64,000 bases of DNA from Lingula anatina. Taxonomy: Eukaryota; Animalia; Brachiopoda. The position numbers and the translations under genes were made by a program. Each line of letters starts with the position of its first letter. Position 1 is the first letter of the stretch. A model generated the notes under the pieces. It saw nothing but the letters and a program-made list of their open reading frames with translations, was not told the DNA's origin and searched no databases. Below, one piece after another: positions 2,155 to 43,500 of the stretch. The stretch covers positions 56,336,788-56,400,787 of the forward strand of contig CM120640.1 of NCBI GenBank assembly GCA_051362555.1, in the 5' to 3' direction.

Positions 2155-5100
2155 ACTAGAGGATCAGAGAGGCGATACCGCCTCCGAATATTGTACCACC
2201 AGCTGGAGCAAGCGCATTCGTATAGACCCCCACATACACAAAATAAGGGACACAGCCACCAGTCTTATGCTTGACAAGCTATAAAAATGCAATCAACAAG
2301 AATTTTCAAAATACGCAAAAAATATATATAACTTAAAATGGTACAATCAAAGTTAAGTTCATCGTAAGGTAGGTCAAAGGTCAATTTCAAGGTCGCAGTA
2401 AATTGCCAGTATATGACTTCCTATTCAAGTACAATAGTAACTACGGACCTATCTCAGCCAGTTTTGGAGATAAAAGGAAAGCAAAATTTGCAAAGTTCAG
2501 TTCATGGTGAAAAGTAGGTCAAAGGTCAATTTTAAGGTCACATATAGATTGCCAGTATATGACTTCCTATTCAAGTCCAATAGTAACTACGGACCTATCT
2601 CAGCCAGTTTTGGAGATAAAAGGAAACCAAAATTTGCAAAGTTCAGTTCATGGTGAAAAGTAGGTCAACGGTCAATTTCAAGGTCACAGTAAGATTGCCA
2701 GTATATGACTTCCTATTCAAGTCCAATAGAAACTACGGACCTATCTCTGCCAGTTTTGGAGATAAAAGGGAAGCAAAATTTGCAATGTTCAGTTCATGGT
2801 GAAAAGTAGGTCAAAGGTCAATTTTAAGGTCACATTTAGATTGCCAGTATATGACTTCCTATTCAAGTTCAATAGTAACTATGGACCTATCTCTGCCAGT
2901 TTTGGAGACAAAAGGGAAGCAAAATTTGCAAAGTTCAGTTCATGGTGAAAAGTAGGTCAAAGGTCAATTTTAAGGTCACATTTATATTGCCAGTATATGA
3001 CTTCCTATTCAAGTTCAATAGTAACTATGGACCTATCTCTGCCAGTTTTGGAGATAAAAGGAAAGCAAAATTTGCAAAGTTCAGTTCATGGTGAAAAGTA
3101 GGTCAAAGGTCAATTTTAAGGTCACATTTATATTGCCAGTATATGACTTCCTATTCAACTTCAATAGTAACTATAGACCTATCTCTGCAAGTTTTGGAGA
3201 TATAAGGGACTAAATGTTATAATTTTGGAGTTACCATAATGTGCCTTAAATTTCGTACAGAAAAAATTAATCAAAATAAAGAAAATGTCATTTTGGTCAA
3301 AATTCTTGAAATAGGAGGTGCTCTGAAGTTTCAAAAGTTCAAGTTTGATGAAATAATGTCATTTTTGAACACAAGTTGTCTGCTTTGCCAAGCCTAATGT
3401 TTTATTTTTCCAGAATTCAAAATTTATTATCCATTACCGTACTGCACATTTTGCTTTTACCACCAATATGTACTTTTTGATACAGCGTAACTCGAAAACC
3501 GTATGGAATACAAAAAAACCGAGACCACCTCCAGTATTGGGCTTTACATGCAAAGTTCAGTTCATGGTGAAAAGTAGGTCAAAGATCAATTTTAAGGTCA
3601 CATTTAGATTGCCAGTATATGACTTCCTATTCAAGTTCAATAGTAACTATGGACCTATCTCTGCCAGTTTTGGAGATAAAAGGGAAGCAAAATTTGCAAA
3701 GTTCAGTTCATGGTGAAAAGTAGGTCAAAGGTCAATTTTAAGGTCACATTTAGATTGCCAGTATATGACTTCCTATTCAAGTTCAATAGTAACTATGGAC
3801 CTATCTCTGCCAGTTTTGGAGATAAAACGGAAGCAAAATTTGCAAAGTTCAGTTCATGGTGAAAAGTAGGTCAAAGGTCAATTTTATGGTCACATTTAGA
3901 TTGCCAGTATATGACTTCCTATTCAAGTTCAATAGTAACTACGGACCTATCTCAGCCAGTTTTGGAGATAAAAGGAAAGCAAAATTTGCAAAGTTCAGTT
4001 CATGGTGAAAAGTAGGTCAAAGGTCAATTTTAAGGTCACATTTAGATTGCCAGTATATGACTTCCTATTCAAGTTCAATAGTAACTATGGACCTATCTCT
4101 GCCAGTTTTGGAGATAAAAGGGAAGAAAAATTTGCAAAGTTCAGTTCATGGTGAAAAGTAGGTCAAAGGTCAATTTTAAGGTCACATATAGATTGCCAGT
4201 ATATGACTTCCTATTCAAGTTCAATAGTAACTATGGACCTATCTCTGCCAGTTTTGGAGATAAAACGGAAGCAAAATTTGCAAAGTTCACTTCATGGTGA
4301 AAAGTAGGTCAAAGGTCAATTTTATGGTCACATTTAGATTGCCAGTATATGACTTCCTATTCAAGTTCAATAGTAACTACGGACCTATCTCAGCCAGTTT
4401 TGGAGATAAAAGGAAAGCAAAATTTGCAAAGTTCACTTCATGGTGAAAAGTAGGTCAAAGGTCAATTTTAAGGTCACATTTAGATTGCCAGTATATGACT
4501 TCCTATTCAAGTTCAATAGTAACTATGGACCTATCTCTGCCAGTTTTGGAGATAAAAGGGAAGAAAAATTTGCAAAGTTCAGTTCATGGTGAAAAGTAGG
4601 TCAAAGGTCAATTTTAAGGTCACATATAGATTGCCAGTATATGACTTCCTATTCAAGTCCAATAGTAACTACGGACCTATCTCAGCCAGTTTTGGAGATA
4701 AAAGGAAAGCAAAATTTGCAAAGTTCACTTCATGGTGAAAAGTAGGTCAAAGGTCAATTTTAAGGTCACATTTAGATTGCCAGTATATGACTTCCTATTC
4801 AAGTTCAATAGTAACTATGGACCTATCTCTGCCAGTTTTGGAGATAAAAGGGAAGAAAAATTTGCAAAGTTCAGTTCATGGTGAAAAGTAGGTCAAAGGT
4901 CAATTTTAAGGTCACATATAGATTGCCAGTATATGACTTCCTATTCAAGTTCAATAGTAACTATGGACCTATCTCTGACAGTTTTGGAGATAAAAGGGAA
5001 GAAAAATTTGCAAAGTTCAGTTCATGGTGAAAAGTAGGTCAAAGGTCAATTTTAAGGTCACATATAGATTGCCAGTATATGACTTCCTATTCAAGTTCAA

Positions 5101-7325
5101 TAGTAACTATGGACCTATCTCTGCCAGTTTTGGAGATAAAAGGGAAGAAAAATTTGCAAAGTTCAGTTCATGGTGAAAAGTAGGTCAAAGGTCAATTTTA
5201 AGGTCACATATAGATTGCCAGTATATGACTTCCTATTCAACTTCAATAGTAACTATAGACCTATCTCTGCCAGATTTGGAGATATAAGGGACTAAATGTT
5301 ATAATTTTGGAGTTACCATAATGTGCCTTAAATTTCGTACAGAAAAAATTAATCAAAATAAAGAAAATGTCATTTTGGTCAAAATTCTTGAAATAGGAGG
5401 TGCTCTGAAGTTTCAAAAGTTCAAGTTTGATGAAATAATGTCATTTTTGAACACAAGTTGTCTGCTTTGCCAAGCCTAATGTTTTATTTTTCCAGAGTTC
5501 AAAATTTATTATCCATTACCGTACTGTACATTTTGCTTTTACCACCAATATGTACTTTTTGATACAGCGTAACTCGAAAACCGTATGGAATACAAAAAAA
5601 ACGAGACCACCTCCAGTATTGGGCTTTACATGCAAAGTTCAGTTCATGGTGAAAAGTAGGTCAAAGGTCAATTTTAAGGTCACATTTAGATTGCCAGTAT
5701 ATGACTTCCTATTCAAGTTCAATAGTAACTATGGACCTATCTCTGCCAGTTTTGGAGATAAAACGGAAGCAAAATTTGCAAAGTTCAGTTCATGGTGAAA
5801 AGTAGGTCAAAGGTCAATTTTAAGGTCACATTTAGATTGCCAGTATATGACTTCCTATTCAAGTTCAATAGTAACTATGGACCTATCTCTGCCAGTTTTG
5901 GAGATAAAAGGGAAGCAAAATTTGCAAAGTTCAGTTCATGGTGAAAAGTAGGTCAAAGGTCAATTTTATGGTCACATTTAGATTGCCAGTATATGACTTC
6001 CTATTCAAGTTCAATAGTAACTACGGACCTATCTCAGCCAGTTTTGGAGATAAAAGGAAACCAAAATTTGCAAAGTTCAGTTCATGGTGAAAAGTAGGTC
6101 AAAGGTCAATTTTAAGGTCACATTTAGATTGCCAGTATATGACTTCCTATTCAAGTTCAATAGTAACTATGGACCTATCTCTGACAGTTTTGGAGATAAA
6201 AGGGAAGAAAAATTTGCAAAGTTCAGTTCATGGTGAAAAGTAGGTCAAAGGTCAATTTTAAGGTCACATATAGATTGCCAGTATATGACTTCCTATTCAA
6301 GTTCAATAGTAACTATGGACCTATCTCTGCCAGTTTTGGAGATATAAGGGACTAAATGTTATAATTTTGGAGTTACCATAATGTGCCTTAAATTTCATAC
6401 AGAAAAAATTAATTAAAATAAAGAAAATGTCATTTTGGTCAAAATTCTTGAAATAGGAGGTGCTCTGAAGTTTCAGAAGTTCAAATTTGATGAAATAATG
6501 TCATTTTTGAACACAAGTTGTCTGCTTTGCCAAGCCTAATGTTTTATTTTTCCAGAGTTCAAAATTTATTATCCATTACCGTACTGCACATTTTGCTTTT
6601 ACCACCAACATGTACTTTTTGATACAGCGTAACTCGAAAACCGTATGGAATACAAAAAAACCGAGACCACCCCCAGTGTTGGGCTTTACATGCTCTACAA
6701 AATGCAAAAAAGAATGGGTCTCTAGCATTAACGGTTCCCGAATTAGAGACAGTTTTCAGTTTCGGTATCTTATGGCCGCTACTCCCGTGAAAATGCACCG
6801 ATTGACCCAAAATTCATGGAGATGAAAGATGACCTGAAGGGTAACACTTTCCAATAATATTATTGGTTAAGTCTGTGTGGTGTCTGAATAACAGGGCAAA
6901 AAAATTTTTTTTCGTAAAAAATTTCATTTTTTTGAAAATTTTGGCCCGTTTGACCTTGAAGTAAAGGTCAAAGGTCAAATCCAAGGGTATATTTGAAATC
7001 TACACATATGACTTTTGGAAAGCCGTCTATAGAAATTTTTCCCATAACTCCTTCCGTAGGGTAGATAATTAGCATTTAATTTTGCCATTTTTAGACAAGG
7101 GTGCATTGCAATGAGTGCCACACCCAGACCCCAATACCGACAAAGCCCAAATTTTACGTGGAACGAGTTGAGATTATAGGTGACCTAAATCCATGAGATG
7201 GGTATGGGGGGCCTTACCGTCTAGGAGGAGAAGCGGTAACGGTAGCCGTCCGGCGGAGCCGGCGGAACGATCCGGACGAGACCGAAACCATGTGTACCGC
7301 CAGCGCTAACGCTGGTGGTACAATA
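2155..7325 (+). mobile_element. Helentron/HINE-like non-autonomous element, family B, carrying a satellite array
   Basis: Starts ACTAGAGG. 5' subterminal motif TGTACCACCAGC (2192-2203) is the reverse complement of GCTGGTGGTACA in the 3' terminal hairpin TGTACCGCCAGCG-CTAA-CGCTGGTGGTACA (7293-7322). No coding capacity. Confidence 0.7.
2350..6350 (+). repeat. 146-bp tandem satellite, 23 units in blocks of 6+12+5, each block followed by a ~330-bp spacer
   Basis: Anchor AGGTCA at 2371, 2516, 2662, 2808, 2954, 3100 | 3576...5182 | 5658...6242. Period is 146, and 476 across spacers. Spacer copies at ~3205-3550, ~5287-5632 and ~6347-6692. Confidence 0.95.
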
Positions 7326-7458
7326 ATTCAATACAATCTGTATCCCTTTTCATTAGAAGAATAAAACAATCATTATAGCATGTTCCACTCAATATTGTTA
7401 GGTGTAACAAATACAAAAAAAACATTAACTACTTAATATGAAATGATCATTGGCATAC

Positions 7459-10400
7459 CTGTGTGGTGGTTTCCAGACAGTTTTACCTCCAATAAATGCC
7501 CATACAAACACCCTGTCAGGTAGTGGAGCAGGCAGTTTCTTGAATAAGGCTGGCCAGTTGTCCAAGTCCAGAAATACTATTTGATGCATGGAAGACAGAT
7601 AATTTGGATCAGGGTCTTCATCGGCTAAGGGCACTCCCTTAGGACTTCCAGGATTTGAAACAATTGTGTTTATTGATGTCACTGGCTTCTGGGCACCTTG
7701 TCTTCCCTTGCTGTTGCTCTTTTTCACTAATGTTGCTGAGGAATGTGAAGTGGTTCTGCAACTACTATTGCTTACACCACTGGCACTACTATCAGTATCA
7801 GGCACAAAGAGAGATGTGCAAGGCCTAAAGAAGTCACTTTGCTGGACTTTACATTTTTGTACATTTTCCAGCTTTTTCTGCAAGAGTTCTTGAGAATTGG
7901 GTGAAAAATCTCTAACGGAGAACCCTTTTGGCAGACCTAATGTGTCAGTGAGTGATTGAGACTTTGATACACTAGGAGTTTTTGCTGTTAACTGTGCTAC
8001 CTCCTTGTCTTCATCATTTGGATTTGATTCAGAGCTTTGAATCACAGTGGAACAGGCTGTTGTGGCTCTACTTTCTGCTGTTGTGGCTCTTTTGCACTCT
8101 GATGAGCTGGCTTTCTTGGCTACAGTATGGAGAATCTTTGCAACTTTTTGGTCCTTTTCCTCATTATCCAACTTCCTCTTTGTTCTCTTTTCAGAAACCC
8201 TTGCAGATGTCTCATCTGAGTACACTGATAAAGCCACTGGGTTGGAAGCTGTTGAAGACTCATTATTATATCTCGTAGCACCAGGTGGGTAATTAAACCA
8301 AGTTCTTGTGGAGTTTATAAAGTGAATTCTGTCTTCCAAAGTCATTTTTTCTTCATTTTGCTTTCTTTTGAGAGTGAAATCCCTCACACCTTTGTGATAG
8401 ATTATTTGCTTGGTTAGAGAAATTCTTCTTACAAACTCGGTGAAAGATGAACAGTTGGCATCTATAACATTTCCTGGTTTCTCAGGATGGCACTCATGTG
8501 ATACACCATCCTCTGGATCAAATAACCGCTGGCAGAAACTGCAGGTAGACCCCTTCAAAAATGTGGAGAATAATTCTGCCTGTAAAAATGAAAGTTGTGT
8601 ACTTCAATAATCATCTTGTCATATATATAAGACATCTTTCTCACCAACTCTTTTTCACACACAAATGCACTAAAACTAGAGCACAATCCTTACAAAATAA
8701 TGTAAATAACACAAACAGTAGAGCTTCATTTACCAAGGTAGTCTCCGAAGATGCAATACATTTCCCAGTGGGGCATTCAGAAATACTCTTTCTAAACTCT
8801 TTGTCACTATTGACTTCTTTCCCACAGTCTACACAGTGAACTCTGGTGCGAACCTGAGCCACCTTATCCTGCATACACATGTATACATAAGCTGGGTAGG
8901 GAAAGGGGTCAGCAGATGGGGATATGTCATCTGAATATAGAGAAAATTTTGATAAATATAATATATTTATTCTATATAAACATATTTATCAATTTTACAC
9001 TAAAAAATACAAAAACAATATCAAGACACTTAGTCACAAGTAAGCAACAACTCAAATGCATCAAAACTTTAATATAATGGCAATATTCAATTTCCACAAC
9101 TGATATAATTTCGTTATATATACTAGCTTCCAAAGAGGCTTGATATATGTTTAATACTTTGATTTCTGTTTTTGGAACAATGTGAAAAAAAAGGTTCACC
9201 TACAGCTGTACAATTTTCCATAACATGTTACATTGAAAGAAACCAATAATTAAGGCACCCTTACCTTGAAAAGCATAGTAATGCTCCTGATGATTCATGG
9301 TTTCTATGTGGTCTTTGCATAGCTCAGAGCTTTGGAATATCTCAAAGCACTGAGGACAGCCATATCCCAGCACAAGAACTGGAGCAGTGTACAGTGTGTG
9401 GCCCACAGTCTTCATGTGCTCTAGACAATTTCTGCACCTCTGTATATTTACAAAATAGATCAATCAAAATAAAACAGTAAATTAAGCAAATGTATTCATG
9501 AAAGAACTTCAAAGACAATTTAAAAGCTGATAAATATCTTGCACAATAAAATATGGACTATACAGTAATGTGAAAAGCTGCAACCCCCATCAATGACTTT
9601 TAAATATTTTTTACCACTCTGCAAGACTTGATATCAAAGGCCTTTATGTAAAATTATAGACAAATGATTCTGTGGGAAAACAAATATATCACCTTAAATA
9701 AAACACCACATTCTGGGCACATATAATGTGAACGTTTAGGTGTGAAGTTCATGAAAGTCTTAAAAGCAACATGTTGAAACTGTTGCATATGATGTGAAAA
9801 CTCATTCTGAGGACTTGAATAATTGGCAAAGGTCATCTCACAGTCAATAACAGGGCATTCCAAACTTTCTGTGGGAGTAGGATTGTCAGTGGAGTCATCA
9901 AGGTTTATGCATTCTATGGCATTAGAAATAGAGGTTTGTGATACTGTTTCAGTTACAGGGTTTTTTCCATCTCTGGAAGCTGTTTCCTTATGTGCTTTTA
10001 ATGAAAGTTTTATTGCAAGTTTAAGAGCTTCATCTTCTCCATCAGAAACATCACCTTCTTCTATAAGCCTAAGGCGAGTCTGGTCATTGTCCCTTAAAAA
10101 TGTGGACATTGTTATGCTAGAGTTTTTTGGTGTTTGTCCCTGCTCTTCATTGTCTTCAAAAGTGATTGTACCAGGAGTTGAAGGCTCAAAGCTACTTGTG
10201 GTGGGTCTTACTTCATCATAAACTGGAGGTGGGATATGTCTTTGTTCTTCCACTTGCCTGCGAGTTATTTCTTTCATCTTCTTTGCCATTCCAGCTTAAA
10301 AATTATTGGTAATGAAATCAATAAAATTCTACAGACAAAATCACCTTCTACATCAATATCATACATGCTAATTTACGGTCACATAAAGAATCAAAAGCAT

Positions 10401-13913: not shown

Positions 13914-16602
13914 ATGGAATGTTTGATAGGTATTCAAGGCAAAGATTTCGTTGTCGTCGCGGCAGATATGAAGTCTGCACGAAGTATACTGACAATGAAA
14001 CACGGTAAGCGTTTAAGTGTCACTGGAATGGCATGCGTAAAGCACCTATGAGGCTAATGGCTTAGTTCCTTTGTGAATTTGGTCGTTGTCAAAATATCGA
14101 ATATCGCAGTGTCTGTAACTATGTACTATAGCACATTTCTGTTTTATGAGTCTGGAAGATTTCTGAAATTTAAATAAAATATCATTCCGATACTCTCTGA
14201 CTCATGAATTAGTGAGGTCAATAACTACATATCTTTAAAAATCCCAACTATTTCATACCTCAATCTTGATTTATCTAGACCAAGACAAGATGTTCCAGTT
14301 AAGTAGCAAACTGATGATGTTAGTCTGTGGGGAATCAGGAGACACAGTACAATTTGCAGAATATATTGCTAAAAATATACAGCTTTATAAAATGAGGAAT
14401 GGTAAGTACATATTTTTTAAAGTTAATCCAATAATTAGCCTTCATCTCCCCTGTTTACTTTTTTTATTAACTGTTAGACTACAATCTAATGGTAAAAGTA
14501 AAGGGAGGGTAAGAGTACTTATCTGTTTACACCCTTACTGTACTGTAGAGCCCTTTCAAGTTTTTCCCATACTCCCAACCATCTCACTATGTCACTCACT
14601 TCTATATTTCAGCAAATAAATGCAATGAATTGATGTGTCAAAAGTAATCAAGTTTACCCCTTTCTGATACCAAATGATTTTCGCACTTTTTGATTGTGAT
14701 AATTTTGAGAAAATCTTTCAGCTTGTTGTTTCACTTCAATCCCTGGCATCCATCTGCCTAGCACAAAATTCATGTTTGATTCTAGCAAACTTAAAATGGA
14801 CAAAACCAGACTAGAAGGTCATTCAGAGAATTAAGGGAAATTGTATTGACTTAACCATGTGTTATAACTGAATACTAGTTCATGAGTGTTTATTTATGTA
14901 CATAATTTTTTTTTCTAAAGATCTTTAGTGATTTAATTTGCTTGTAATGTTTTTTCTTTTCAGGATATGAATTATCACCACATGCCGCAGCTAATTTTAC
15001 AAGGAGAAATTTGGCAGAATATCTCAGGAGTCAGGTATGTAGATGCTGAAATTATGAGAAGTTTGATAGGTATTGTGTTGAAAGATGATGTAATTGTAAT
15101 AGATATTTGTTGAGTTCAGACAATAAGAAAATCTATCTAAAAGCATAATTTTAATCAGTTTCCCTCCATTAAGATATACTTCTACAAAGCAGGGTGTAAT
15201 AAATGTATAGTGAAAAAAAATTAGCATGAGAATTGCACTGTGGATTTTAGTTAATTGATAAAAATTCTTATTATTAATTATAGACTCCATACATGGTGAA
15301 TCTGTTGCTGGCAGGTTTTGACGAAGAAAGTGGACCTGCTCTGTACTACATGGACTACCTGGCCTCCATGAACAAAGTGCCTTTTGCATTACATGGTTAT
15401 GGCTCTTTCTTTGCTCTTAGTATCATGGACAGGTATTACAAAGAAGGTGGGTAGTTATCTCTATTCATGTGCTCCGCATTTGACATATATAAATCAACTA
15501 TTTCATTTCCCTATTTGTGTATTTTTTGTTGTTTATCATCAATTTAGACAAATGAAACGTAAAATAACTTTGTTTTTATTTTGTCATGAAAAAGTTACAC
15601 CCTTTAGTGTATTAAAGTTAAAGACTGAAGGAAGTTGGATATAATTATATTTTCAGATCTCACACAGGAAGATGCAGTAAAGCTTGTACAAAGATGTGTT
15701 AATGAGGTAAATTGATTAAGAGACTGAAAAATTAATTTCAGCAAGTTATAGTGATGCTAAATCATAGGGACATGTAATGATATTTTTTGTTATTTCAAAT
15801 CCTGTGCATCATGGGCTCGAAATAGGACATAACATTTTTGACTTACTTAGCGGATAACAGTTTGTGTCAGATTTATTAAAGGTTGCGCAAAGTCCACATA
15901 ATGACCTGTTAAACGATTTATTCGTCGACGTTAGGTATCTACATATTATAAGTAAAGTCTTTAACTCTCCAAAACTACGTCCGTCTCCATGCTCCGTCTA
16001 TCTCAGTCTCCTTCTCTTCTCCCTTTCTTCTCCCTCTCTCTTCCTCTTGGCTCCCTAAGTATCAGTTCCAATTGCTTATATACTTATATATTTCTTATCT
16101 ATGGTCGATGCACACAAACTTTAATTACTTATAATTGTATAATTAATTTCTTTGCCTCAGCGTTATACAAAGAGGCCACAACATTACCCAAAAACTATTG
16201 GACCACAACACTTTACATCATATGACCTCATAAGATATCTTTTTTTATCTTTATGTTGGACACGACATATTGGCCTCAAAAGATTGTCTGTATCTTCAAA
16301 GACACCTGTAGGGCTTACAAAATTTTTGGGAAATGGCAGGTTGGTTGGTTGGACTTGTTTGGGTTGAACTCCCTGCAAATCGATGACCAAATTACAGATT
16401 CACATTTTGGATTCCCTGTACCCCGAATCTTGGGGAAACAACTGCCTTGGATGAATGATTTCACTTCTTTTGAAGTGTCTTTTGTGTCTTTCAGATCAAC
16501 AAAAGGTTTCTTGTAAATCTACCAGCATTTAAAGTCAGAGTGATCAACAAGGATGGCATTCAAGACCTACCTGATGTGAAACCAGTGCTGTCAACATCTT
16601 AG
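13914..16602 (+). CDS. PSMB2: Proteasome subunit beta type-2 (beta4), 201 aa, 6 exons
   Basis: Exons 13914-14004, 14279-14401, 14964-15034, 15284-15446, 15657-15706, 16495-16602 (606 nt, all GT-AG). [18 protein letters not shown]...[59 protein letters not shown]...[21 protein letters not shown]. Confidence 0.97.
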
Positions 16603-17929: not shown

Positions 17930-18028
17930 TCATTTGATTGGATAATTTAGGTCATATGATACCTTTTTGAAAGACTTCCGTCGACGAACAGACAGACTGG
18001 CACAGGTCTCATTGAATTTTACGAGCCG
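17930..18028 (+). promoter_or_regulatory. Probable promoter and non-coding first exon of the EB1 gene
   Basis: Reverse CCAAT (TGATTGG) near 17935, local CpG enrichment, and a strong donor CG|GTAAGT at 18028/18029. The coding exon has an acceptor at 20214, upstream of its ATG. Confidence 0.45.
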
Positions 18029-20234
18029 GTAAGTTTTATTGCAGATCATTGTTGAATTAAAAATGTAGAGTCACCCATGACCGATGCTTATACAGAAAGA
18101 ACAGTGACCTAATAAATATCACAAAGTGAAAGACATTGTACACCATTTGGGCATTTTAAATGCGACTTCATTCCTGGGGATCGGACTTCACACAGTCATC
18201 TCTGCGTTTTTTGTATGAATTTATTTGTCACACATGTATTCCGATTGCTCTCAATATACCATGCCAGCATAATATCACAGCGCTACAAGTAAATGTTTTT
18301 CAAGGTTTTATAAAATTTATTTAATGTTCCATTTCATTTTAACATACTCTGAAATCGGCGAAAATGAATGCAGAGGGAGTGACATTGACAACTCTTGTCG
18401 ATAATGTGTAAATTCTGAATCATCAGTGCCAATCGGAAAATCTTAACTCTCACAACATGCATTTAGGGCAGGCAATTTTTGTTTTTCAATTTAAACACAC
18501 TTAGAAGGTCATGTATTTCTTGCGTTTTTATTTTTGTGATTTTAGTGAAGGCGAAACTGACCTGCTCCTGTGTGGGAGTGCCCCTACAATGTCATCCCCA
18601 CATTTCCTTTTACTTGTACTACTAACTCTGCACACTGTTAAAAACAATGAGAAAGTTTGTACCCTGATATGAGAGCTCTCAAATATTTTTCTTACTACTC
18701 AGTTGCAAAATCACATTGTTAAAAAAGCAAACCAATCTTTCAAGGCATCGTCACTAGAATGAATGGGAACTCTTTTGATTATCATAGAGAAGCTATTTTA
18801 TGCATGTACCCATGCACTAGACATATCTCCTGAAATAATTTTTTATGACGTTTAAAGGGTAACATTGTCAGTTAAAAACATTTGTTTTCTCCTCCACAGT
18901 GTATCATCTCGAGTCCATCCAATGTCTGCTGGGAGTGACCCACACGTGACCCACTTACAATCATTATTTCTATTTTGTGTAGCCTCCTATCATCATAGGG
19001 AACATTCCCATGAAACTATCATTCTATGAAGATTCATCCAACTTTGCAGAGCCTCTTGCTGAATGCAATCAGATTAACTGAATGACATGTGACGTCTCCT
19101 TTGGTAGCTAGGGGGAACACTTGGCTTCTGGAAGATTTTTTTACTTCATTTTGAATGCAACCAAGTGCACATGAAAGTTATTTGCTTACCCCTCAAACTG
19201 CTTGAGGAAGCATGTCACTCAATTTTTATTAATATTTGAAGACAAAAAAAAAAAATAGCATGCCCTACCAAGTCCCTGTCAGACATAGTTCAACTTAAAA
19301 TTAGCATATATACAGCATGTGGCAATCCTGTCAAGTAATTAGTCAGCATGATTATTATATGCCAAGTATTATTGTTGTATACCAAATTTTATTTTTGACT
19401 CAGGCATTTATCTGATAGATAACTTAGGACGTTTTACTCTAGGCAGATATTTCTTGTGGAAAAAGCATTGATTGAATGTGATTATATAATTATCATGTTA
19501 CCAGTACCACTGGGTCATGGGAATATATGACCATCTCTTGTCCTCAAGGTAGCTCTACAATCTAGGCAAGGTGTACAGTAATTGACACATTCCATAAAGA
19601 TATGGTATATCTGAGTTTATAGTTTAAACATGATGTTATTTTGTTCCCACCCAGAATGACTACCCACTGGCAGCATTACTTTTTGTTTCACTCTATAGTT
19701 TGATTACTGCTAGAATGGATCATTTCTTTCAAACTTCAGTTTTAAACTTGTTATTACTTGCTAAATATATGTAATGGTTAACATGTCATCAGTTTTACAA
19801 TCAGATGTTATTATAACTTATTTAGGAAGGCCATTTGACTACAAGCTGTCGTGAAATGTAGCAGGAATGACTAGAAGCTAGAAAATAATTGTTGTGAAAG
19901 CGAATTATTATGTGCAGTTAAGTTTGTAATGCCTGTTTTGAGGGGATGTGATAATGTAGGTTTGAAAATTACATACACTGCAGTTAACTGAAACAGCATG
20001 TTTACATATTATTTGAGAAGGCAAAAAAATGTACAAGTCTAATAAATCGTCAAAACAGAAAATGTCATGGATAGGAAGAAAAAAACGCATTTACAAAAAA
20101 GGAAGATATGTGTTTGAGAATGTCAATGGTAAGTTATGCTCAGTCATTTCAAACAAATTTTTCTGGTAAGTCTTTCTTCACAATTACTGATCATCTGATT
20201 TTTCACATTTTCAGGAAAAGATCCAGCAGAAAAA

Positions 20235-23200
20235 ATGGCGGTTAATGTGTACAGCACAAGTGTCACATCAGACAATATGAGCAGAAATGACTTGATAGCC
20301 TGGATAAATGACAGTTTGGATGCCAATTTCTCGAAAATTGAAGAATTGTGTACAGGTAGATAAATATAGTCCATTGTTATTTATTGTTGTATTTTATTTT
20401 TTTTAACCATTTAGATGCAACTTTACCACGTTTCATAAGAATTTCCCTATTCACTGGTCATCCCAACTTATCCACTTGCACTATTGAAGAAATGTGATAT
20501 AGAAAATTTTCTTGCGTAACTTCAGAGTGCTGTTGCTTGACAATTAAATGCCCCCTACACTGGATTCAATGAAAATTACTTTGGTGCATATTATATGTCA
20601 AATGCATCATAACCATTTTATTCTTTTTGGTTTATCAGTGGATTTATGTCCAAAAAGACATGAGCTGTGTTGCCCTTTTTGCTGTTCATAGGCACTGTTG
20701 TCATCCAAATGTATGGTGTCATTGAAGGTCTTGTAAAACAGACAAAATGTAATATAGATATTGATATAACATACACTTCAACTGGTGGATTGATTAAACA
20801 TAGTCATCCTCTTGTTAAATGCACATATTTTGGTCTCTTTATAGGTTCAGCCTATTGTCAATTTATGCACATGCTTTTCCCTGGTAAGTTATTGTTTTAC
20901 TAATTTTTAAAACAAATAATAATTTGACCATTAAAGTGATGGCAACTTTACCAATTTTTCAAAGTTTCACTCCATTTGTAGATTTTCAATGAATGGTAAC
21001 ACCCAAGGGGGAGTTTGTTAGATGTTTATGTTCAGATGCTTATTCAATACCATATGGCGAGTTTAAAAAGTGTGTAGATGCTTTGTTAAAGAGAAAATTG
21101 TAAGTATTGGCCATAGTAACAATATGGTTTTGCAGTTAACTAGCTGACCGCTCCCCTTACAGGCTCTATTTCTTTGAAAAAAGTCAAAATGAACACCAAA
21201 CTGGAGCACGAGAAAATAGCTAACTTCAAGGTGCTACAAGACAGCTTCAGGAAAATGGGGGTAGATAAGGTGGGTTGGAGGGGACCACGAGAGAAACCCC
21301 CAGAGAGAAAGACAAAAAAATTGGAGGTTTTGATTTCTGGTTGCCATTTCATCAATAAATTGGAAATTTGACCTTATGACAGAGATGTTTTCTGAAATGC
21401 TCCAGTTGGCAAAACCTCTAATGCTGATATTGTGTTGTTATGTACATGCAGCTGAAAGTATTGTAAAAAAAACAACCATGGCATTATCTATATTTAATAC
21501 AGTCTGGTTGACATATTTACAATATTATCAGTTATGGAGGGAGAAGAGAGGGAGCACGCTATTGGTACTAACTCCTCTTACAAGAAAGGTTAACACAAGA
21601 GGGACTCCTCTTACTTTCCAAACACTGCTTACTCAAAGTCAAGTGTGGAGTTAGTCAAGTGTGTGGTCCCTCTCTTTGAATCCATGTTTAAACAGCTGAC
21701 TGCCAGTGCAGGATGCATGTCTCAGATCCACTGAGGGGAGGCTTCAGAGGGACATACTCAACTGTTATCCTTTCTGTTCAACTTCTATTGCAGGTTCTAT
21801 TTCCTTAAGAAAAGTCAAAATGAATACAAAATTAGAACATGAGTATATAAATAACTTCAAGACTCTCCAGGCCTCCTTCACCAAAACGGGGGTTGATAAG
21901 GTGAGTGCGGTGTGCACTGGGGAGTGGACTGGGTGACAATGGACACCATCCTTTCTGGACTCTGGACAGTGTGGAAACATTTGTGAGAGACTGGAGTTAT
22001 CCTTAATATTATATATTATAGGCTGTATTTTGGAATTAAAAAAAAGCCAAACAACAGTCATGTTAGCCCCCGCTTTATTATTTTGACACCACCCCATATT
22101 CCATCCTCTTATGCTGGAAGTTTATTAAGCAACAAGTGTATTTTAGGACTTATAATCTAAAATGCATGAATACAACAGAAGCATTGTTCACCTGTATCTA
22201 GGTTCAAAGCATGGGTCCAAGGGATAGATGTCACCAACCCGGTTCAATTTTCTGCCACTGCTTGCCTCACTAAATTGGTGATAATTGTTGTGCACAGTTT
22301 TTCTAATCATTTGTAATAATTTGTTTTTCAGTGCTGTGTCTGCTGTAGTTAGTGCTCAGTAAAGCTTCACTTCTTTTTATGTACAGACACAGATGTGTCT
22401 GTACATATTGCCATCACCCGCGTCTGTCGTCGCCATCGCCGTCGCCGTGCACTTTCAGCGTTAACACCATAAGTGGAAGACAGTTTTGCTTTTTGGCTTT
22501 ATATTTACAGAGCTGATGAATATTCATAAAACACAGGTCAAGTTCGAAAATCAGCATGATCGGGCCATTATTGTAGAATTTATGCTGTTTTTTCACTTTT
22601 CAGCATATATGCAACCTTGTAAACACATTTCAAGGAAAACCGTTAGGCTTGTTGTCACGAAACTCACAGGAGTAATCAATCTTACTAAAACGCAGATCAA
22701 GTTCGAAAATCAGCATGATCGGGCCACTATTTTAGTAGTTATGCTGTTTTTTCACTTTTCAGCATATATGCAACACTGTTAACACATTTCAAGGAAAACC
22801 CATAGGCCTGTTGTCATGAAACTCACAGGAGTAATCAATCTTACTAAAATGCAGGTCAAGTTCGAAAATCAGCATAATCGGACCATTATTTTATAAGTTA
22901 TGCTGTTTTTTCACATTTCCTCAGATTCAATTCTTAAGCATGTTAACAGTCTCATTATTTAATTAATAAGATATGTAAAAGTGTTTGTTTGACATTTCCT
23001 GCATCTTTACAACATTGTTAGTTGATTACTTAAAAATGATGGTAAACTTGTAATCGTGTATTGTGTAATAAAGTTTCAAAAATGGAAATAAACTCATATC
23101 ATTGCAGTTTGTAAGATTCAATCATTCACTATGTTCAGAAACTCAGAATGGAGGAAATTGGACATTAAACACTTTTCTATTGATATTTTTCCCATCTCAT

Positions 23201-25602
23201 CAATTTTCTTAGTTGATCATATATAAATGGCAGTAAATTGTTAATTTTGTTATATGTTAAAAAATTGTTAAAAGTGGAAAAAATAAACACATTTCAGGAC
23301 AGTGCTGTCTTGTTTACATTTTGGCATTTTCAAGTTGTGACTTTGAAGTTCCATGGGCATGAAGACCTTTGCTAGTCACATTTTCTGAATATCCATAATA
23401 CTAATATTTTATTATTAAAAATTGATGGTCATTATGCTGTTAAACGTTATGTAATATTGCATCAAAATTTGGAAAAAAAATATTTTGGGCACTGCTCCCA
23501 TGATGACCATTTAAGAAAAATCATGTCACTTACTGTTCTCAAACTTACAGGAAAGAAACATGGGACTTAAATACAGCTTCAGTAGGCAATGCAGTCTGTT
23601 TGGTAATTCTTTCTGCTAGTTAAAGTTTTTTTTTTTTTTTGTGAAAATTTAATTTTTCACTTATTGGCATTTTCAAGGTGTGACTTTGAAGTTCCATGGG
23701 CTTGAAGACCCATGCTAGTCACATTTTCTGAAAATCCATGATACGTATATTTTATTATTTAAAATTGACGGTCATTATGCTGTTAACCATTATGTAATAT
23801 TGCATCAGAATAAGAGAAAACACAATTTTGGGTGCTGCTGCCATGATGACCATTATGGAAAACCATGTTACTGATGATTGCCAAACGTTCAAAAAAGAAA
23901 TACAGGACTAAAATGCAGCCTGAGTTGGAAGAGCAGTCTAATTGGCTTCTTTTTCTGGAAGTTATACATTTTCAAAGTGTGAACTTGAACTGCCATGGGC
24001 CTGAAGCCTTATGCTTGTTACACATTTTACTTACATTGGTATTACCTGTTGAGCATAATTAAAATTTGATGTTGAATTTGCAGTTTAACATAATGTACTT
24101 TTGCATCAGAATTGACAGTAGCCTATTTTGTGCATAGTTATTTCCGCTTTTTGTCTGTACATTTGACAGCTTTGCTGCCTTGTTGTATTCCCTGTTCCTA
24201 TTTTTACCTTAAGTTTTTTTTTTCTTCTGTATTTTTCAATATGTATCTTGTGACAAAAATTAACATTATGCAGCAAATTGTTCCTTGTATGGGCAGGCTT
24301 TGTTTAGATGTTGCTCGGTTGTTGGTGTTAGCATGTGCTGTAATTTTGCATTAATGTCACAGTCCTATAATATGTGACATAATTGAATGAGGCAAACAAA
24401 ATTTTCCAGGTAGTTGAAATTTTATTTTTGTTAGTATGATAATCTATTATCTTATAGACTAGAAAATAATTTATTACTGCTTAGCACTTTTTTTAATCAG
24501 TGCACCCTGATTTTGTAGAGTTAGTAGTTGCTAATAAAATCCCATGTGAATGCAAGATACAGTATAACCAATTAACAGTTAGTATTTTATGAAACAATGA
24601 CTTCTCTTATAAGTTCTTATTTCTCATTAATACATCTTTGACTTAAAATGTACTTTTTCTTTTTTCTGTGAAACTTTCTAGATTGGTTTTATGAGTGTTT
24701 TAAGTTGTTTTTATGTTAACCTACACGTTGGCTTTTTTTACTATCACAGGCATGAATGCACATTCTCTTAATTTTATTCATTAATGACCTTTTTCATGGA
24801 TATTGTTCTTTCTGGTATAAGCAAGATATAAGAGAGGACAAAAAAATGAAAACTACCTTTTACAGGTCAGGACTTGTCACCTTGTAATGTCATGATGAGA
24901 GGTCTTTGATTACTAAGCAGTATGTTGAAATTACTTTCACTGGAAATTCTACTGTAGTTTAGTTATGAAACTTAAATTCAGCATGTTGGACAAAAAACCT
25001 GCATGTAATGAAATTACTTATTTGAAAGTATATGTCTTTTTATGTACCATAAAAAATAGACATTCTGTGTGTTATAGATCATCCCGGTGGAGAAGCTAGT
25101 CAAGGGTAGGTTTCAAGACAACTTTGAGTTTGTTCAATGGTTTAAGAAGTTTTTTGATGCCAACTATGATGGCCAGGAATATGATGCCCTCAATGAACGT
25201 GGAGGTGAGCCACTAGGTGGTGCAGGAGGAAAAGGTCCAGCAAAAGCCATGCCCAGGTCTATGGCAAGCAGGCCCACAAAACCTGTTGGAGGTAGGATTC
25301 TGTGAAGTAGCAAAATATAATTTGGAATGGTTTAATCTCTGGTCTTTGAAGCAGCTGTCAAGTAAGGGTAAAAGTTGCTATATGACTTCATGACTTGGGG
25401 GTAGGTGACAATATGTAAAAGAGGTTAAGCTGTTCAATCTCAAATTTGCTGCATGTCCTATGAGATGATGAGAGGTTTCCGTTTTCCAAATTTAGGAGTG
25501 CTAGCCTGCCCCAACCCTTTCTCCTGTTAAATACTCATGCAGACACTGACATGTGAAGACCATTGTCAATAAAGATACATTTTATAAAGGAAAAGGCTGT
25601 AT

Positions 25603-25641
<39 letters not shown>

Positions 25642-27055
25642 TTTGATCACCAAATGCCTATCAATCAATTGTTATGTTGAAATATATCCAGGCTGAAATC
25701 TGAAATACCCTATTTAAAATTTAATGTTGCCAGTATCAGAAATGTAATTCCTCTTTTACTGCATTTACAGTGGTGAAAAGTACACCAGCAAGGGGTGCAT
25801 CTGCAGGAATGAAAACGGCACCAAAAGCAATGGGAGATCAGTCACATAAAATAATAGAATTAGAAAATGAGGTATCCAGTAAAAACATGCAAGATTGTTA
25901 CATGTTAAGAATGTAATTTCATTGTAAATACTTGAATACTGCCTTTAAATAGTTACTGTACATGTACATATTTTCAAATGAAATTGTCTGGACTTCTATT
26001 TAGGGTTTGACAAGTCCGTGCAATTTTCAATGTAGATAATGGTCCATATTGTCGTGTTATTTAAATATTGTTACTTTCAATTTAGACAATCTAACATTTG
26101 CAGATTAAGGAGCTGGAAACAACAGTCGAAGGCCTAGAAAAGGAGAGAGATTTCTACTTCGGCAAACTTAGGGACATTGAAGTGTTGTGTCAGGAGCATG
26201 CAGAACTTCCTTTAGTAAAAAATATTATGGATATTTTATATGCGACTGAGGTGAGTTCACAGGTCAAAGTTCCAAAGAAAGGATGTTTTTTTTAAAAGCT
26301 AAATCCCTCTACTTTTGTTTTTGTAAAAAATTGGAAACATGTCAAAAATGTCCATGGTTTTCTGAAAAGGAAAAAACGTTTGAAAAATAGTAGTGTGATG
26401 GTCCCAGAACTGAAATTAAAAGAAGAAAGTTGACAGCTCTTAACCCCCCCCTTTCAAGAAGCCTAAATTATGATCATATTTTGTGGCAGAAGTTAAATGA
26501 AAATGTGGAAGAGATACTTGCCAATATGAGGAAAAATGGGTGTTGAGACTAAGTTAGAAATGTTGGAGAGGAGGGGTTTAAGAAATTATCAGATCTGCTG
26601 GACTTTTGTTGAATTTAAATTTGACATAAGAAAACCAATTATTATTATTTTTAATCTGCCCGACTTTATATTGTACATTATTTTAGTGTTCTGAAAACTT
26701 GGAAACCTTATTCATATTAAAATTAAGTTAGATTGAATTGCATTTTATATGTATATTCTGTGTATACAACATTCTAAATAATGCATAGAAAATCAGTAAG
26801 AATAGAGATGGCATTTTTGTTCAGAACAAGAGGTTAAGCTCACAAAGGGAAGAGTATAGAAAATGCTGCCAAGATTGGTTTCAGTGAGCGTATTGTTCCA
26901 ATAATTTGTTCCTTGTGTCTTTGGAAATTTTTTGTCCTGATTGCTAAGGAAAAAATCTTTCTATCCATGTAATATCTGTATATCAAACAGTATGTTCCAT
27001 TCTTCAGGATGGGTTTGCACCTCCAGAGGGTGAAGCAGGAGAGGAGGAATATTGA
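20235..27055 (+). CDS. MAPRE1: Microtubule end-binding protein EB1 (RP/EB family), 258 aa with either exon 3A or 3B
   Basis: Exons 20235-20355, 20845-20883, [21163-21269 or 21794-21900], 25078-25291, 25771-25871, 26104-26250, 27008-27055 (777 nt). [17 protein letters not shown]..., CH domain [25 protein letters not shown] domain [18 protein letters not shown]-terminal EEEY. Invertebrate gene, not a specific orthologue of one vertebrate paralogue. Confidence 0.97.
21163..21269 (+). CDS. MAPRE1: EB1 alternative exon 3A ([36 protein letters not shown])
   Basis: 107 bp, CCTTACAG acceptor, AAG|GTGGGT donor, phase 1 to 0, open frame. Confidence 0.85.
21794..21900 (+). CDS. MAPRE1: EB1 alternative exon 3B ([36 protein letters not shown])
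   Basis: 107 bp, TATTGCAG acceptor, AAG|GTGAGT donor, same phases as exon 3A. Confidence 0.9.
22378..24180 (-). mobile_element. Family A HINE-like element in an EB1 intron
   Basis: Same terminal hairpin (22378-22407), three 160-bp units (~22534, 22694, 22853), and a body that is reverse-complementary to ~150-2148. Confidence 0.75.
25600..25644. repeat. (ATTT)n microsatellite
   Basis: About 11 direct copies. Confidence 0.9.
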
Positions 27056-40500: not shown

Positions 40501-43500
40501 ATGGGTTTTGTATTTTCAATAATTTTTCCATCATTCCTGATTTACCTCTTTTATTCAAAACAGTACGAAACAAGGCAATGCCCATGATGGCAGATGAAGT
40601 TTATAATGACTAGCCAGTCATTTCAACTAAAGTATTAAACCTAAAATAAAAAAAACACCGAATCCAAGTGCAGAAAAATCTATTTTGGCGGGAAAATCTC
40701 ATGGAGTGTCCCTTTAAGGCATGCAGTAGGTGTTGTAGGAATTAGATGAACAGTGTATGGCATAAACATTCAAGATTCACTCAAACATTTAACACCAAGT
40801 CAACCTGAAACCCAAAGTTGAAGGTAAATAAATGTAAGGTTGACAATAGGAAATTAAGGTTTGAAGAGGTTTTCAAAGATAACAAACAGCAATGTGATTT
40901 GCCTGCTCATGACCAAAAGTTCTAACATATTAAATACAATATAAAAGCACAAATGTGTCAAATCAGACCAATAGCTTGAAGTGTGCAGTTAAAAAAACGC
41001 TGACATTAAAACATGCAATAAAACATCTGTTATGCCAACATGTATCATCATCAGGAGCATTTCATCACTGGGAAAACGTATGTGCAATGTACCGAAATAA
41101 ATTATCAAGTGTGAAAACCCTTTCACCAGCTCCACCTTTAGATGCCATACATAAATATTCTGGTTAAATTCCTTGCATTAAAGCTATAGGCCACCATCAC
41201 TCGATTCTGACTCTGAAGGTTGGCTAAAACAATTCCACCTAATCACTTAAGCAAACAAGCACTATTGGCAGGTTAGTTAAGCAGAGAGTAAATGCCCAAG
41301 CCGAATCAATTACTTGGTTTACCAAAAAGCATGCTAAGCAGCAGACTTAAATTACTTCAATGGAATTGACTTACATACTGAGAAAATTTGCTCATGCAGA
41401 TACTGATGCAGCCTAAAGCAAGGTGGATTTTTTTCTGTATTCTTATTCTTTCACAAGTTCTCAGGCAAGCAAGAAAGCAAAATGCTCGAACTTTTAACAT
41501 TTCACATACAGAGCAACAACCTTACGTTCCCTGAATCTCATCTTTTTACCCCACACACGTATTGTACTTTCAGAATGAGAATCATCTGAGATAGCCCAAA
41601 TTCTCAAAATTTAAAGTAAAAGCAAGATTTTGTGGGATTTGGAGAAAAGTGGGCTCAGAAATAGGGGCAGACTAGTATTTGCAGTGCTGCATGGATAGAA
41701 GCCTCTGACTTTATCCATGAGTATTATTCTCATTTTCTTATCTTTTTCCACATTTTTCTGATTGTTTTTTTTAAGTTTGTAAAAGAATGGCCTTTTGCAT
41801 AACAGAACTCATTACTTTTGCAATATGTTTGAAGACAACATTAAAGGGATAATAACTCTTCGTATGAGATCTATATTTCACAATAAAAACATTGTGAAGA
41901 ACTCATAGAAATATATTATATTTTGTTTTACAACAAAAACGTCAGTTATAGCTGTCATTCTGATGTCTGAGCTTGTCTTTAGACCACGTGACCTCCATTG
42001 ATGGCTATACTCTGTTATAATCTCTTAAGAGATTATAACAAAAAAAAACTTTTTAGAAAAAAAACCAGGGACTAACTTTGAATGTAAAAATAGATTCATT
42101 AATCATTGGTAAGTATGGGAAAATTGTTGTTTACTCCAGGAAAATTCATTTTTGGGCCAAAACGAAGAGTTATTATCCCTTTAATTCCCAGTGCATAGAG
42201 TTTCAGCCTTATTGCTAAAAGGTTAGCCACACTTTGTGTGGATTCTCATGTTTTCTAGTCTGAAATGACATCACACAGCGCTGAATGTCTCGTTCTAGGA
42301 TATCTCGAATTATTTTCTATTAGGGAGCCCTGCTTAGGTGAGGGTGAAAGATAATCTTCTTACTATGGATACATGGTCCAAATTAACTTGACATCATCTT
42401 CCTCGCTATGTCTTCTTTCCCAGGTACAAACCATTTCAACTTGAGCATAAACAGTACAGGTAAAATTACTGGGAGGGACAGGTGGATCTGAAATGCGAAA
42501 AGTTAACTTGAACACATTCAAAGTCAATAAAATTACAGTATCACCTTTCCCATCATACTGCTTTCAAATGTATGTCTATTTTTTTCTTTTCAATTTTCAA
42601 AAGATCTTCAAAAGGCATTTTCAATCTCTTTTTGTGACCTTCAGTGTTATGCTTATCTACAACTACGTAAGTCAATAATTTACTTTATTTTGGTGCAAAA
42701 TATTTACCTCCTCTACCTCTTATCGATATACATTGTACATCAGAAAATTCAATGTTAAATGCAGATGTCAAGGTGTAAAGGTCAAAGAGTGAAAGCCAGA
42801 TGAGGGCGATCTAAAAAGACATCAAAGGCTGAATTGACAAGAGGTCAGTAAATGTTGTCTAAAAAGGTCAAAGAAAGCCTAACTGTGAAGGTCAGGTGCC
42901 TTAAATAGTGGGCTAGGGATGACCTGAAAAGGAAGTTTACAGGACAATGGGAGTAGAGATCAAACAGTGGCCTAAAATATTTTGACCAATTAAAATAGAT
43001 CTGTGGTACGTACATCATATTGGGCTAACTTTAACGGAAGGGTCATTTTTGGAGGGTAAAAGCTGAATGCATGGCTTTTAAGAGCTTTAAAATGCTAAAC
43101 ATTATGATTAGTTTCATACCTCCAATATGAATAGTTGTGTATGCAAAATTTTGACAGTCGTCACTTGGCATTTTCCTTTCCTCTGCTGACACATTTTGTC
43201 TGCACTCATAGATCCCAGAGTCTGCTTTGGTTAAATTGCTAAATGTCTCAGTCAGGTGTCCCGTGTCTGAGCATATGTGACGTCTCTTGTCATCAACCCT
43301 GCTTACACATAAAGGCTTCTGTCCAATAGTATCATTTGCAGTGCATGTCAGAGTTAGATTGGACATCACTGGTAAATAGGGGTCAGTAGGGGTAAGATCT
43401 GTAATGTATTAAATCATTATTAGCATAAGGACCACACCTTAAAGACCATGTGCACATTTGCAAAACATCAAAAATTAGATGAAGATATATTTTGACTTTA

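What the first reader, a model, noticed from the sequence alone, without database searches (positions are those of the whole stretch)
21163..21900. Tandem duplicated, mutually exclusive exons in the EB1 microtubule-binding CH domain
Seen: two homologous 107-bp exons with identical phases and intact splice sites. Many differences are synonymous (AACACCAAACTGGAGCACGAG vs AATACAAAATTAGAACATGAG both encode NTKLEHE), which points to purifying selection on both. Because 107 is not a multiple of 3, including both or neither shifts the frame, so exactly one must be used. The variants differ as [18 protein letters not shown] (3A) vs [18 protein letters not shown] (3B): 3A replaces the Tyr of the conserved LEHEYI motif with Lys and is more basic. 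Established: the CH domain mediates EB plus-end tracking, and vertebrates diversify it with three paralogues. Inference: this animal obtains two EB variants with different microtubule affinity or phospho-regulation from one gene by exon switching. I do not know whether this has been described in this lineage.
Basis: partly seen in the sequence, partly recalled or inferred. Interest (0 to 1): 0.85.

Follow-up and report, generated by a model that had tools for sequence, protein, structure and literature searches.

The report
Two-version microtubule-binding exon in lophotrochozoan EB1
A brachiopod gene for the microtubule tip-tracking protein EB1 carries two side-by-side versions of one exon of its microtubule-binding domain, as do mollusc and tubeworm relatives; the RNA read here uses the first version, and the pair likely lets one gene make two slightly differently tuned proteins.

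Summary
Two 107-nt AG/GT exons (21163-21269, 21794-21900) are 81/107 identical, with dN/dS about 0.13. Using both or neither gives an early stop. Their products equal RefSeq Lingula anatina EB1 isoforms X1 and X2, so the pair is already annotated. In 8 RNA runs only 3A junctions were listed (E2-3A 261 reads); 3B is at best rare there. The pair is not Lingula-specific: 18 of 31 named lophotrochozoan entries examined show two versions of this exon. Two genomic contigs (clam-like, tubeworm-like) have both in tandem. In all three genomic cases the downstream copy has Thr83 in place of the usual Lys and a TGCATG (RBFOX-type) motif 80-139 nt upstream. This favours one old duplication, but the tree is unresolved. 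The Tyr71-to-Lys change is lineage-specific, not the conserved difference, and tested tubulin contacts are essentially unchanged. Arthropods instead duplicated the next exon, and Drosophila Eb1 is already listed as such a gene. Verdict: a new, apparently undescribed, phylum-spanning member of a known kind (tandem mutually exclusive exons). The function is untested.

The parts
17998..18028 (+). 3' end of a 5' UTR exon spliced to 20215 (its 5' start was not mapped)
   Evidence: Loose read ends before 20214 in 4 of 4 runs match the window at 17998, followed by a GT donor
20215..20355 (+). Exon 1 (ATG at 20235; 121 coding nt)
   Evidence: junction 20355-20845 read in 8 of 8 runs
20845..20883 (+). 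Exon 2 (39 nt), common upstream exon
21163..21269 (+). Exon 3A, 107 nt, residues 54/55-89 of the CH domain; K71, V77, R83; the form found in RNA
   Evidence: E2-3A joints 47, 15, 35, 52 and 39, 7, 26, 40; 3A-E4 joints 44, 20, 24, 40; equals RefSeq X1
21270..21793 (+). 524-nt GT-AG intron between the two copies
21714..21719 (+). TGCATG (RBFOX-type motif) 80 nt upstream of 3B; same motif at -115/-136 and -139 before the downstream copy in L020 and L073
   Evidence: binding not tested
21794..21900 (+). Exon 3B, 107 nt; Y71, T77, T83; intact, no junction listed in 8 runs
   Evidence: equals RefSeq X2
22163..22168 (+). Second TGCATG, 263 nt downstream of 3B
25078..25291 (+). Exon 4, common downstream exon (rest of CH domain plus linker); single here, doubled in arthropods
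25771..25871 (+). Exon 5
   Evidence: loose ends behind 25291 listed for runs X1 and X3
26104..26250 (+). Exon 6 (EBH coiled coil)
27008..27055 (+). Last coding exon, acidic tail ending EEEY-stop

Best explanation
The EB1 gene holds two tandem versions of the exon for CH-domain residues 55-89, the RNA read here uses 3A, and the pair is likely a mutually exclusive switch inherited from one duplication in an early lophotrochozoan. Shown: either copy alone gives a full-length EB1; both or neither give an early stop, which nonsense-mediated decay would likely clear. Inferred: 3B is a minor, tissue- or stage-restricted form, likely held down or switched by an RBFOX-type protein binding UGCAUG just upstream of it. 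Inferred: the two proteins keep the same core tubulin contacts (H69, K76, K89) and differ on the same face of helix 68-84, chiefly at residue 83 (basic upstream, Thr downstream in Lingula and the tubeworm; Asn versus Thr in the clam contig). This would fine-tune, not switch, microtubule tip binding. Loss of the Tyr71 phospho-site in one copy is a later, recurrent overlay.
For: Exon anatomy and frame penalty. Two versions of exactly this 35-residue block, with the following exon-4 segment shared, in 18 of 31 named lophotrochozoan entries: 1 brachiopod, 16 molluscs, 1 annelid. Both copies in tandem with AG/GT ends and 107-nt length in contigs L020 and L073. Downstream copy has T83 in 3 of 3 genomic cases, against K83 in 49 of 49 arthropod models and T in 2 of the other 78 loci. 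Same-position copies are more alike in DNA across the three lineages than a codon-swap null (score 23, p 0.022). TGCATG within 180 nt upstream of the downstream copy in 3 of 3, of the upstream copy in 0 of 3, of single-copy exons in 0 of 12; background 6.8% of 355 windows. B-type full-length ORFs lie on Logan contigs of 2 kb or less, hence spliced, in oyster and clam clusters (P0226 12 contigs, P0221 4, P0110, P0238, P0242). A single B clade is not rejected (p-AU 0.55). Helix 68-84 is predicted; residues 69, 73, 76, 80, 83 lie within 80 degrees on a helical wheel.
Against: No 3B junction was listed in 8 Lingula-labelled runs. The exon tree is unresolved and joins Lingula 3A with 3B (85/77, weak). 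Their synonymous sites look less than saturated (16 of 27 same codon vs 11.4 expected, p 0.047), which needs gene conversion or a younger duplication. The protein-level two-class signal vanishes when column 83 is removed (transitive triplets 0.567 vs null 0.565). My A/B labels for species without genomic order were set by eye using that column. The direct Lingula-tubeworm orientation score is -3. TGCATG was noticed after looking, is one of 12 hexamers shared by the three introns, and also occurs downstream of 3B and before exon 4. No paper I read names residue 83 as a tubulin contact.
Confidence: 0.6

Rival explanations
1. The exon was duplicated several times independently (brachiopod, mollusc, annelid lines), and the downstream copies converged on Thr83 and an upstream UGCAUG.
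For: Lingula 3A and 3B are sisters in the tree (85/77), share 28 of 35 residues including the unusual M63, and are not saturated at synonymous sites. Class signal depends on one column. Arthropods show that EB1 CH exons can duplicate independently. Convergent tandem exon duplication is common (PMC9741552, passages).
Against: Same exon, same boundaries and same order of T83 in three phyla. The shared TTA versus CTN codon at L67 also follows position, though it is a single column. The UGCAUG has the same position. Within oysters and within heterodont clams copies group by class, so the pair predates those radiations.
Confidence: 0.25
2. In Lingula 3B is no longer a productive alternative. It is either a silent relic or a poison exon whose co-inclusion with 3A sends the mRNA to decay and tunes EB1 dose.
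For: No 3B junction; depth over 3B (0-3 per column) is like the neighbouring intron. A+B gives a stop at codon 94.
Against: 3B keeps an open frame, consensus splice sites and dN/dS about 0.13 at dS above 1, and 30 of 35 residues would not stay EB-like without protein-level selection (28 of 35 equal 3A). No 3A-3B joint was listed either. B-type isoforms are full-length in mollusc assemblies. RefSeq models X2.
Confidence: 0.1
3. The point of the switch is to include or omit the Tyr71 phosphorylation site.
For: Human EB1 Y71 is phosphorylated and the phospho-deficient mutant lowers microtubule growth (PMC4180461, passages). 11 of 17 pairs have Tyr71 in exactly one copy, against Tyr in 49 of 49 arthropod models.
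Against: 5 of 17 pairs keep Tyr in both and 1 in neither. The Tyr-less copy is upstream in Lingula and L020 but downstream in L073. It differs even among oysters.
Confidence: 0.15

Closest known systems
RefSeq Lingula anatina EB1 isoforms X1 and X2 (XP_013405034.1, XP_013405035.1)
   Same: Identical proteins to the 3A and 3B forms: the pair is already in automatic annotation, as in many mollusc RefSeq sets.
   Different: Annotation only; I found no paper on it.
Drosophila Eb1 tandem duplicated exon substitution (listed in supplementary table S4 of PMC9741552)
   Same: Same gene family and same kind of event in the CH domain (gene name only seen).
   Different: By my data the arthropod duplicate is the next exon (window exon 4: end of CH domain plus linker), with the LEHE exon single. 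The table does not say which exon, so this match is inferred.
Vertebrate EB1/EB2/EB3 paralogues
   Same: Small substitutions at the CH-tubulin interface tune tip position and nucleotide preference (PMC6398475, passages).
   Different: Separate genes. The EB2-defining residues named there (90, 100, 105, 106) fall in window exon 4, not in 3A/3B.
RBFOX-regulated mutually exclusive exons (C. elegans egl-15 5A/5B, vertebrate FGFR2 IIIb/IIIc)
   Same: UGCAUG upstream of one exon of the pair, where RBFOX represses (PMC2777236, passages).
   Different: Here only the motif is seen; binding and direction of effect are untested.

Membership tests
EB/RP (MAPRE) family | N-terminal EB-type CH domain, C-terminal EBH domain, acidic tail ending in an aromatic residue | tested here: met
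   PF00307 and PF03271; E 4.8e-92 to human EB1; 3B model matches EB1/EB3 CH structures, rmsd 1.5-1.8 A over about 130 residues; tail EEEY
Tandem duplicated, mutually exclusive exons | Adjacent homologous exons of equal length and phase with intact splice sites | tested here: met
   also L020 and L073
Tandem duplicated, mutually exclusive exons | Never both, never neither, in stable mRNA | tested here: met
   No 3A-3B joint in the complete joint table (4 runs); no 3A-3B or E2-E4 joint among the 15 joints shown (46 hidden); both forms are out of frame
Tandem duplicated, mutually exclusive exons | Each copy is used in some mRNA | tested here: inconclusive
   3A yes; 3B not listed in 8 runs. B-type spliced ORFs exist in oyster and clam assemblies
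Steric-hindrance exclusion (branch point too near the upstream donor) | Very short distance from upstream donor to downstream branch point | tested here: not met
   Intron 524 nt with a candidate branch site 37 nt before 3B; a distant branch point was not mapped
U2/U12 incompatibility exclusion | One copy with minor-spliceosome sites | tested here: not met
   Donors GTGGGT and GTGAGT, both ordinary GT-AG; U12 consensus recalled
Docking-site/selector RNA pairing (Dscam type) | Conserved, competing long-range pairings | tested here: not met
   Folding z -0.57 and -0.12. Of 6 duplex tests in the window one reached 9/300 and did not recur in L020 or L073 (35/200, 171/200)
RBFOX-regulated exon pair | (U)GCAUG in the flanking intron at a conserved position | tested here: met
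   -80, -115/-136, -139 before the downstream copy; 0 of 3 upstream copies; 0 of 12 single-copy exons; post hoc
RBFOX-regulated exon pair | RBFOX binds and changes the ratio | not testable with these tools
   needs minigene, knockdown or CLIP

The most novel reading that the evidence does not exclude
The two great protostome branches each invented a splicing switch in the EB1 microtubule-binding domain on neighbouring exons. Lophotrochozoans did so on the helix 68-84 exon over 500 million years ago, under RBFOX control, and arthropods on the next exon. Each would be a one-gene equivalent of the vertebrate EB1/EB2/EB3 paralogues that sets tip-tracking behaviour by cell type.
Probability: 0.35. 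Interest if true: 0.7.

Novelty: new member of a known kind. Interest (0 to 1): 0.5.

Why it matters
EB proteins organise microtubule plus ends, and vertebrates tune them with three genes. If confirmed, molluscs, annelids and brachiopods get a second EB by swapping 35 residues in the binding domain, while arthropods swap the next exon. That gives natural, evolution-tested variant pairs for asking which CH residues set tip versus lattice binding; residue 83 is a candidate that I did not find discussed in the papers read. It also means that EB probes and knockdowns in oysters, snails or annelids may see only one isoform. The event type itself is well known and the isoforms are already in RefSeq.

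Tried and rejected
No whole genome is held for this window, so other EB genes in this animal were not counted. The run search listed no RNA holder; 9 runs came by species label and I laid 8 of 9. A first exon script was off by one base (only its 81/107 identity is used) and was corrected. RNA-structure explanations were tested and dropped. An apparent conserved sequence after the downstream donor was not significant across phyla; only the two bivalve-like contigs matched, p 0.005. The exon tree has 2 of 37 branches starred and cannot date the duplication. The first AlphaFold model (6 sequences, pLDDT 48) was too poor; the second (71 sequences, pLDDT 72) gives only fold and helix limits, no contacts. 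Searches for residue 83 in EB papers gave nothing relevant. The supplement of PMC6398475, which maps contact residues, could not be read and may bear on whether residues 73, 80 and 83 touch tubulin. PMC5727398 passages named no usable residues. Earlier scan findings: none. Assembly or haplotype duplicate rejected: 24% divergence, unlike flanks, present in other phyla.

Full report
Observation. The window holds an EB1 gene on the + strand with coding exons at 20235-20355, 20845-20883, 21163-21269 (3A) or 21794-21900 (3B), 25078-25291, 25771-25871, 26104-26250 and 27008-27055. 3A and 3B are each 107 nt, flanked by AG and GT, 81/107 identical. Of 35 codons 17 are the same, 11 differ silently and 7 change the residue (K59R, K71Y, A73N, V77T, D80A, R83T, M85T); NG86 dN 0.17 and dS 1.24. 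Including both stops at codon 94, including neither at codon 64. The two clean forms equal RefSeq Lingula anatina isoforms X1 and X2 letter for letter. The animal is therefore very likely that brachiopod, and the pair is already in automatic annotation.

RNA. I laid 8 of 9 runs offered by species label; tissues are not given. E2-3A joints numbered 47, 15, 35, 52 and 39, 7, 26, 40, 261 in all. 3A-E4 joints numbered 44, 20, 24, 40, and loose ends behind 21269 read into exon 4 in all four runs. No joint into or out of 3B was listed. One search's table is complete down to 3 reads, so 3B is under about 7% there (at most 2 reads a run against 112). One search showed 15 joints and hid 46 weaker ones. 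Depth over 3B is at intron level. So 3A is the default; use of 3B in Lingula is not shown by my data.

Relatives. Protein searches and cluster look-ups gave isoform sets that differ in this 35-residue block and share the following exon-4 segment. Two versions appear in 18 of 31 named lophotrochozoan entries examined: Lingula, 16 molluscs (bivalves and gastropods) and the annelid Lamellibrachia, whose gene model runs through both copies. The 13 entries with one version include four Mytilus entries and Ostrea; five of the 13 were seen as single proteins whose clusters I did not list. Four insect species (10 proteins) showed one version. A metagenome scan gave 80 loci; 2 of 80 are genomic contigs with both copies in tandem, each 107 nt with AG/GT ends: L020, most like heterodont clams, and L073, nearly the Lamellibrachia sequence. 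B-type full-length ORFs lie on Logan contigs of 2 kb or less, so they are spliced mRNA: P0226 on 12 contigs against 51 for the A-type P0225, and P0242 on 1 against 22 for P0241. One Saccostrea-cluster B-type ORF is on 4 contigs with no A-type Logan member listed, so A is not always the commoner record.

What differs. Numbering is colinear with human EB1. Mal3 Y56, K63, K76 and Q89, shown to matter for tubulin contact (PMC3368265, section 8 read), correspond to H69, K76, K89 and Q102 by an offset of 13 that I inferred from the match ranges. H69 and K76 are invariant in all 34 copies of 17 pairs and K89 in 33 (one Arg). Residue 83 is Lys in human EB1 and EB3, in 49 of 49 arthropod models and in 72 of the other 78 loci. 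In the 17 pairs it is basic in one copy in 12 and never in both. In all three cases with known order the downstream copy has Thr (upstream Arg, Asn, Lys). On the predicted helix 68-84 residues 69, 73, 76, 80 and 83 share a face by helical-wheel geometry; this is inference, not a measured contact. Tyr71 is a phospho-site in human EB1 (PMC4180461, passages; PMC5354776, passages). It is present in exactly one copy in 11 of 17 pairs, but which copy loses it varies, so it is not the founding difference.

One origin or several. For one origin: same exon, same boundaries and same order of Thr83 in three phyla; a DNA-level position signal (p 0.022, codon-swap null); and a B clade that is not rejected (p-AU 0.55). 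Against: the tree is unresolved and weakly joins Lingula 3A with 3B; their silent sites are not quite saturated (p 0.047); the protein class signal (best labelling reached by 11 of 1000 shuffles) disappears without column 83. Gene conversion between neighbouring copies would reconcile these. I put one origin at about 0.6-0.65.

How one copy is chosen. Steric hindrance and U12 sites do not fit. RNA pairing did not exceed shuffles or recur across species. TGCATG lies 80, 115/136 and 139 nt upstream of the downstream copy in 3 of 3 genomic cases. It is absent before 3 upstream copies and 12 single-copy exons, against a 6.8% background. A lone B-like exon on L005 has GCATG at -150 and -173. RBFOX proteins repress exons from upstream sites and activate from downstream ones (PMC2777236, passages), so this site would favour 3A. 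The motif was noticed after looking, and more copies lie downstream of 3B, so direction is uncertain. The frame shift would let nonsense-mediated decay remove double or empty products (established pathway, not tested here).

Arthropods. 49 arthropod gene models carry the next exon twice and this one once, as do 8 of the 80 loci. [quoted passage not shown] So the two protostome branches appear to have duplicated neighbouring exons independently.

Novelty. The event type is well known and the isoforms are in RefSeq. Ten literature searches (listings and abstract starts seen; open-access papers only) found no description of this exon pair in brachiopods, molluscs or annelids.

Noticed in passing
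L021:2697/3317, L024:6221/6672, L036:1003/1394, L047:3434/6675, L050:3240/6480, L052:2726/3852, L057:2543/3907, L079:2339/2812; proteins P0057, P0061, P0084, P0088, P0039: Arthropod-like EB1 genes carry the exon equal to window exon 4 (end of CH domain plus linker) twice in tandem with AG acceptors; a Culicoides model has it three times.
   Followed up: partly
window 22370-24185: Repeat cluster in the 3B-E4 intron with about 160-nt tandem units; attracts hundreds of 95-99% identical RNA reads from other copies, so a widely transcribed interspersed repeat.
   Followed up: no
L005:514-620: A lone B-like exon (G83) in a 1.4-kb genomic contig whose first 30 intron bases resemble those after the L020 downstream copy (p 0.005), with GCATG at -150 and -173.
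   Followed up: partly
proteins P0134, P0117, P0135, P0153, P0104, P0136, P0072, P0142: Unnamed transcript-derived EB1s also replace Tyr71 (K, S, W); P0134 combines K71 with T77 and T83, so Tyr71 loss recurs in either class.
   Followed up: no
window 14239-14616 (+): Open frame containing a stretch that resembles a proteasome beta subunit exon (recalled, not searched).
   Followed up: no
window 7428-8603 and 9657-10295 (-): Long open frames of 392 and 213 codons, the first with Cys/His pairs; not searched.
   Followed up: no
window 3369-3713 and 5451-5795 (+): Near-identical direct repeat about 2.1 kb apart.
   Followed up: no
window 43046-43408 (-): Open frame with an immunoglobulin-like Cys pattern (recalled, not searched).
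   Followed up: no
window 20288, 20315, 20327, 20333, 20879: Runs differ from the window at several exonic sites in a run-specific way, consistent with population alleles; none was listed inside 3A.
   Followed up: no
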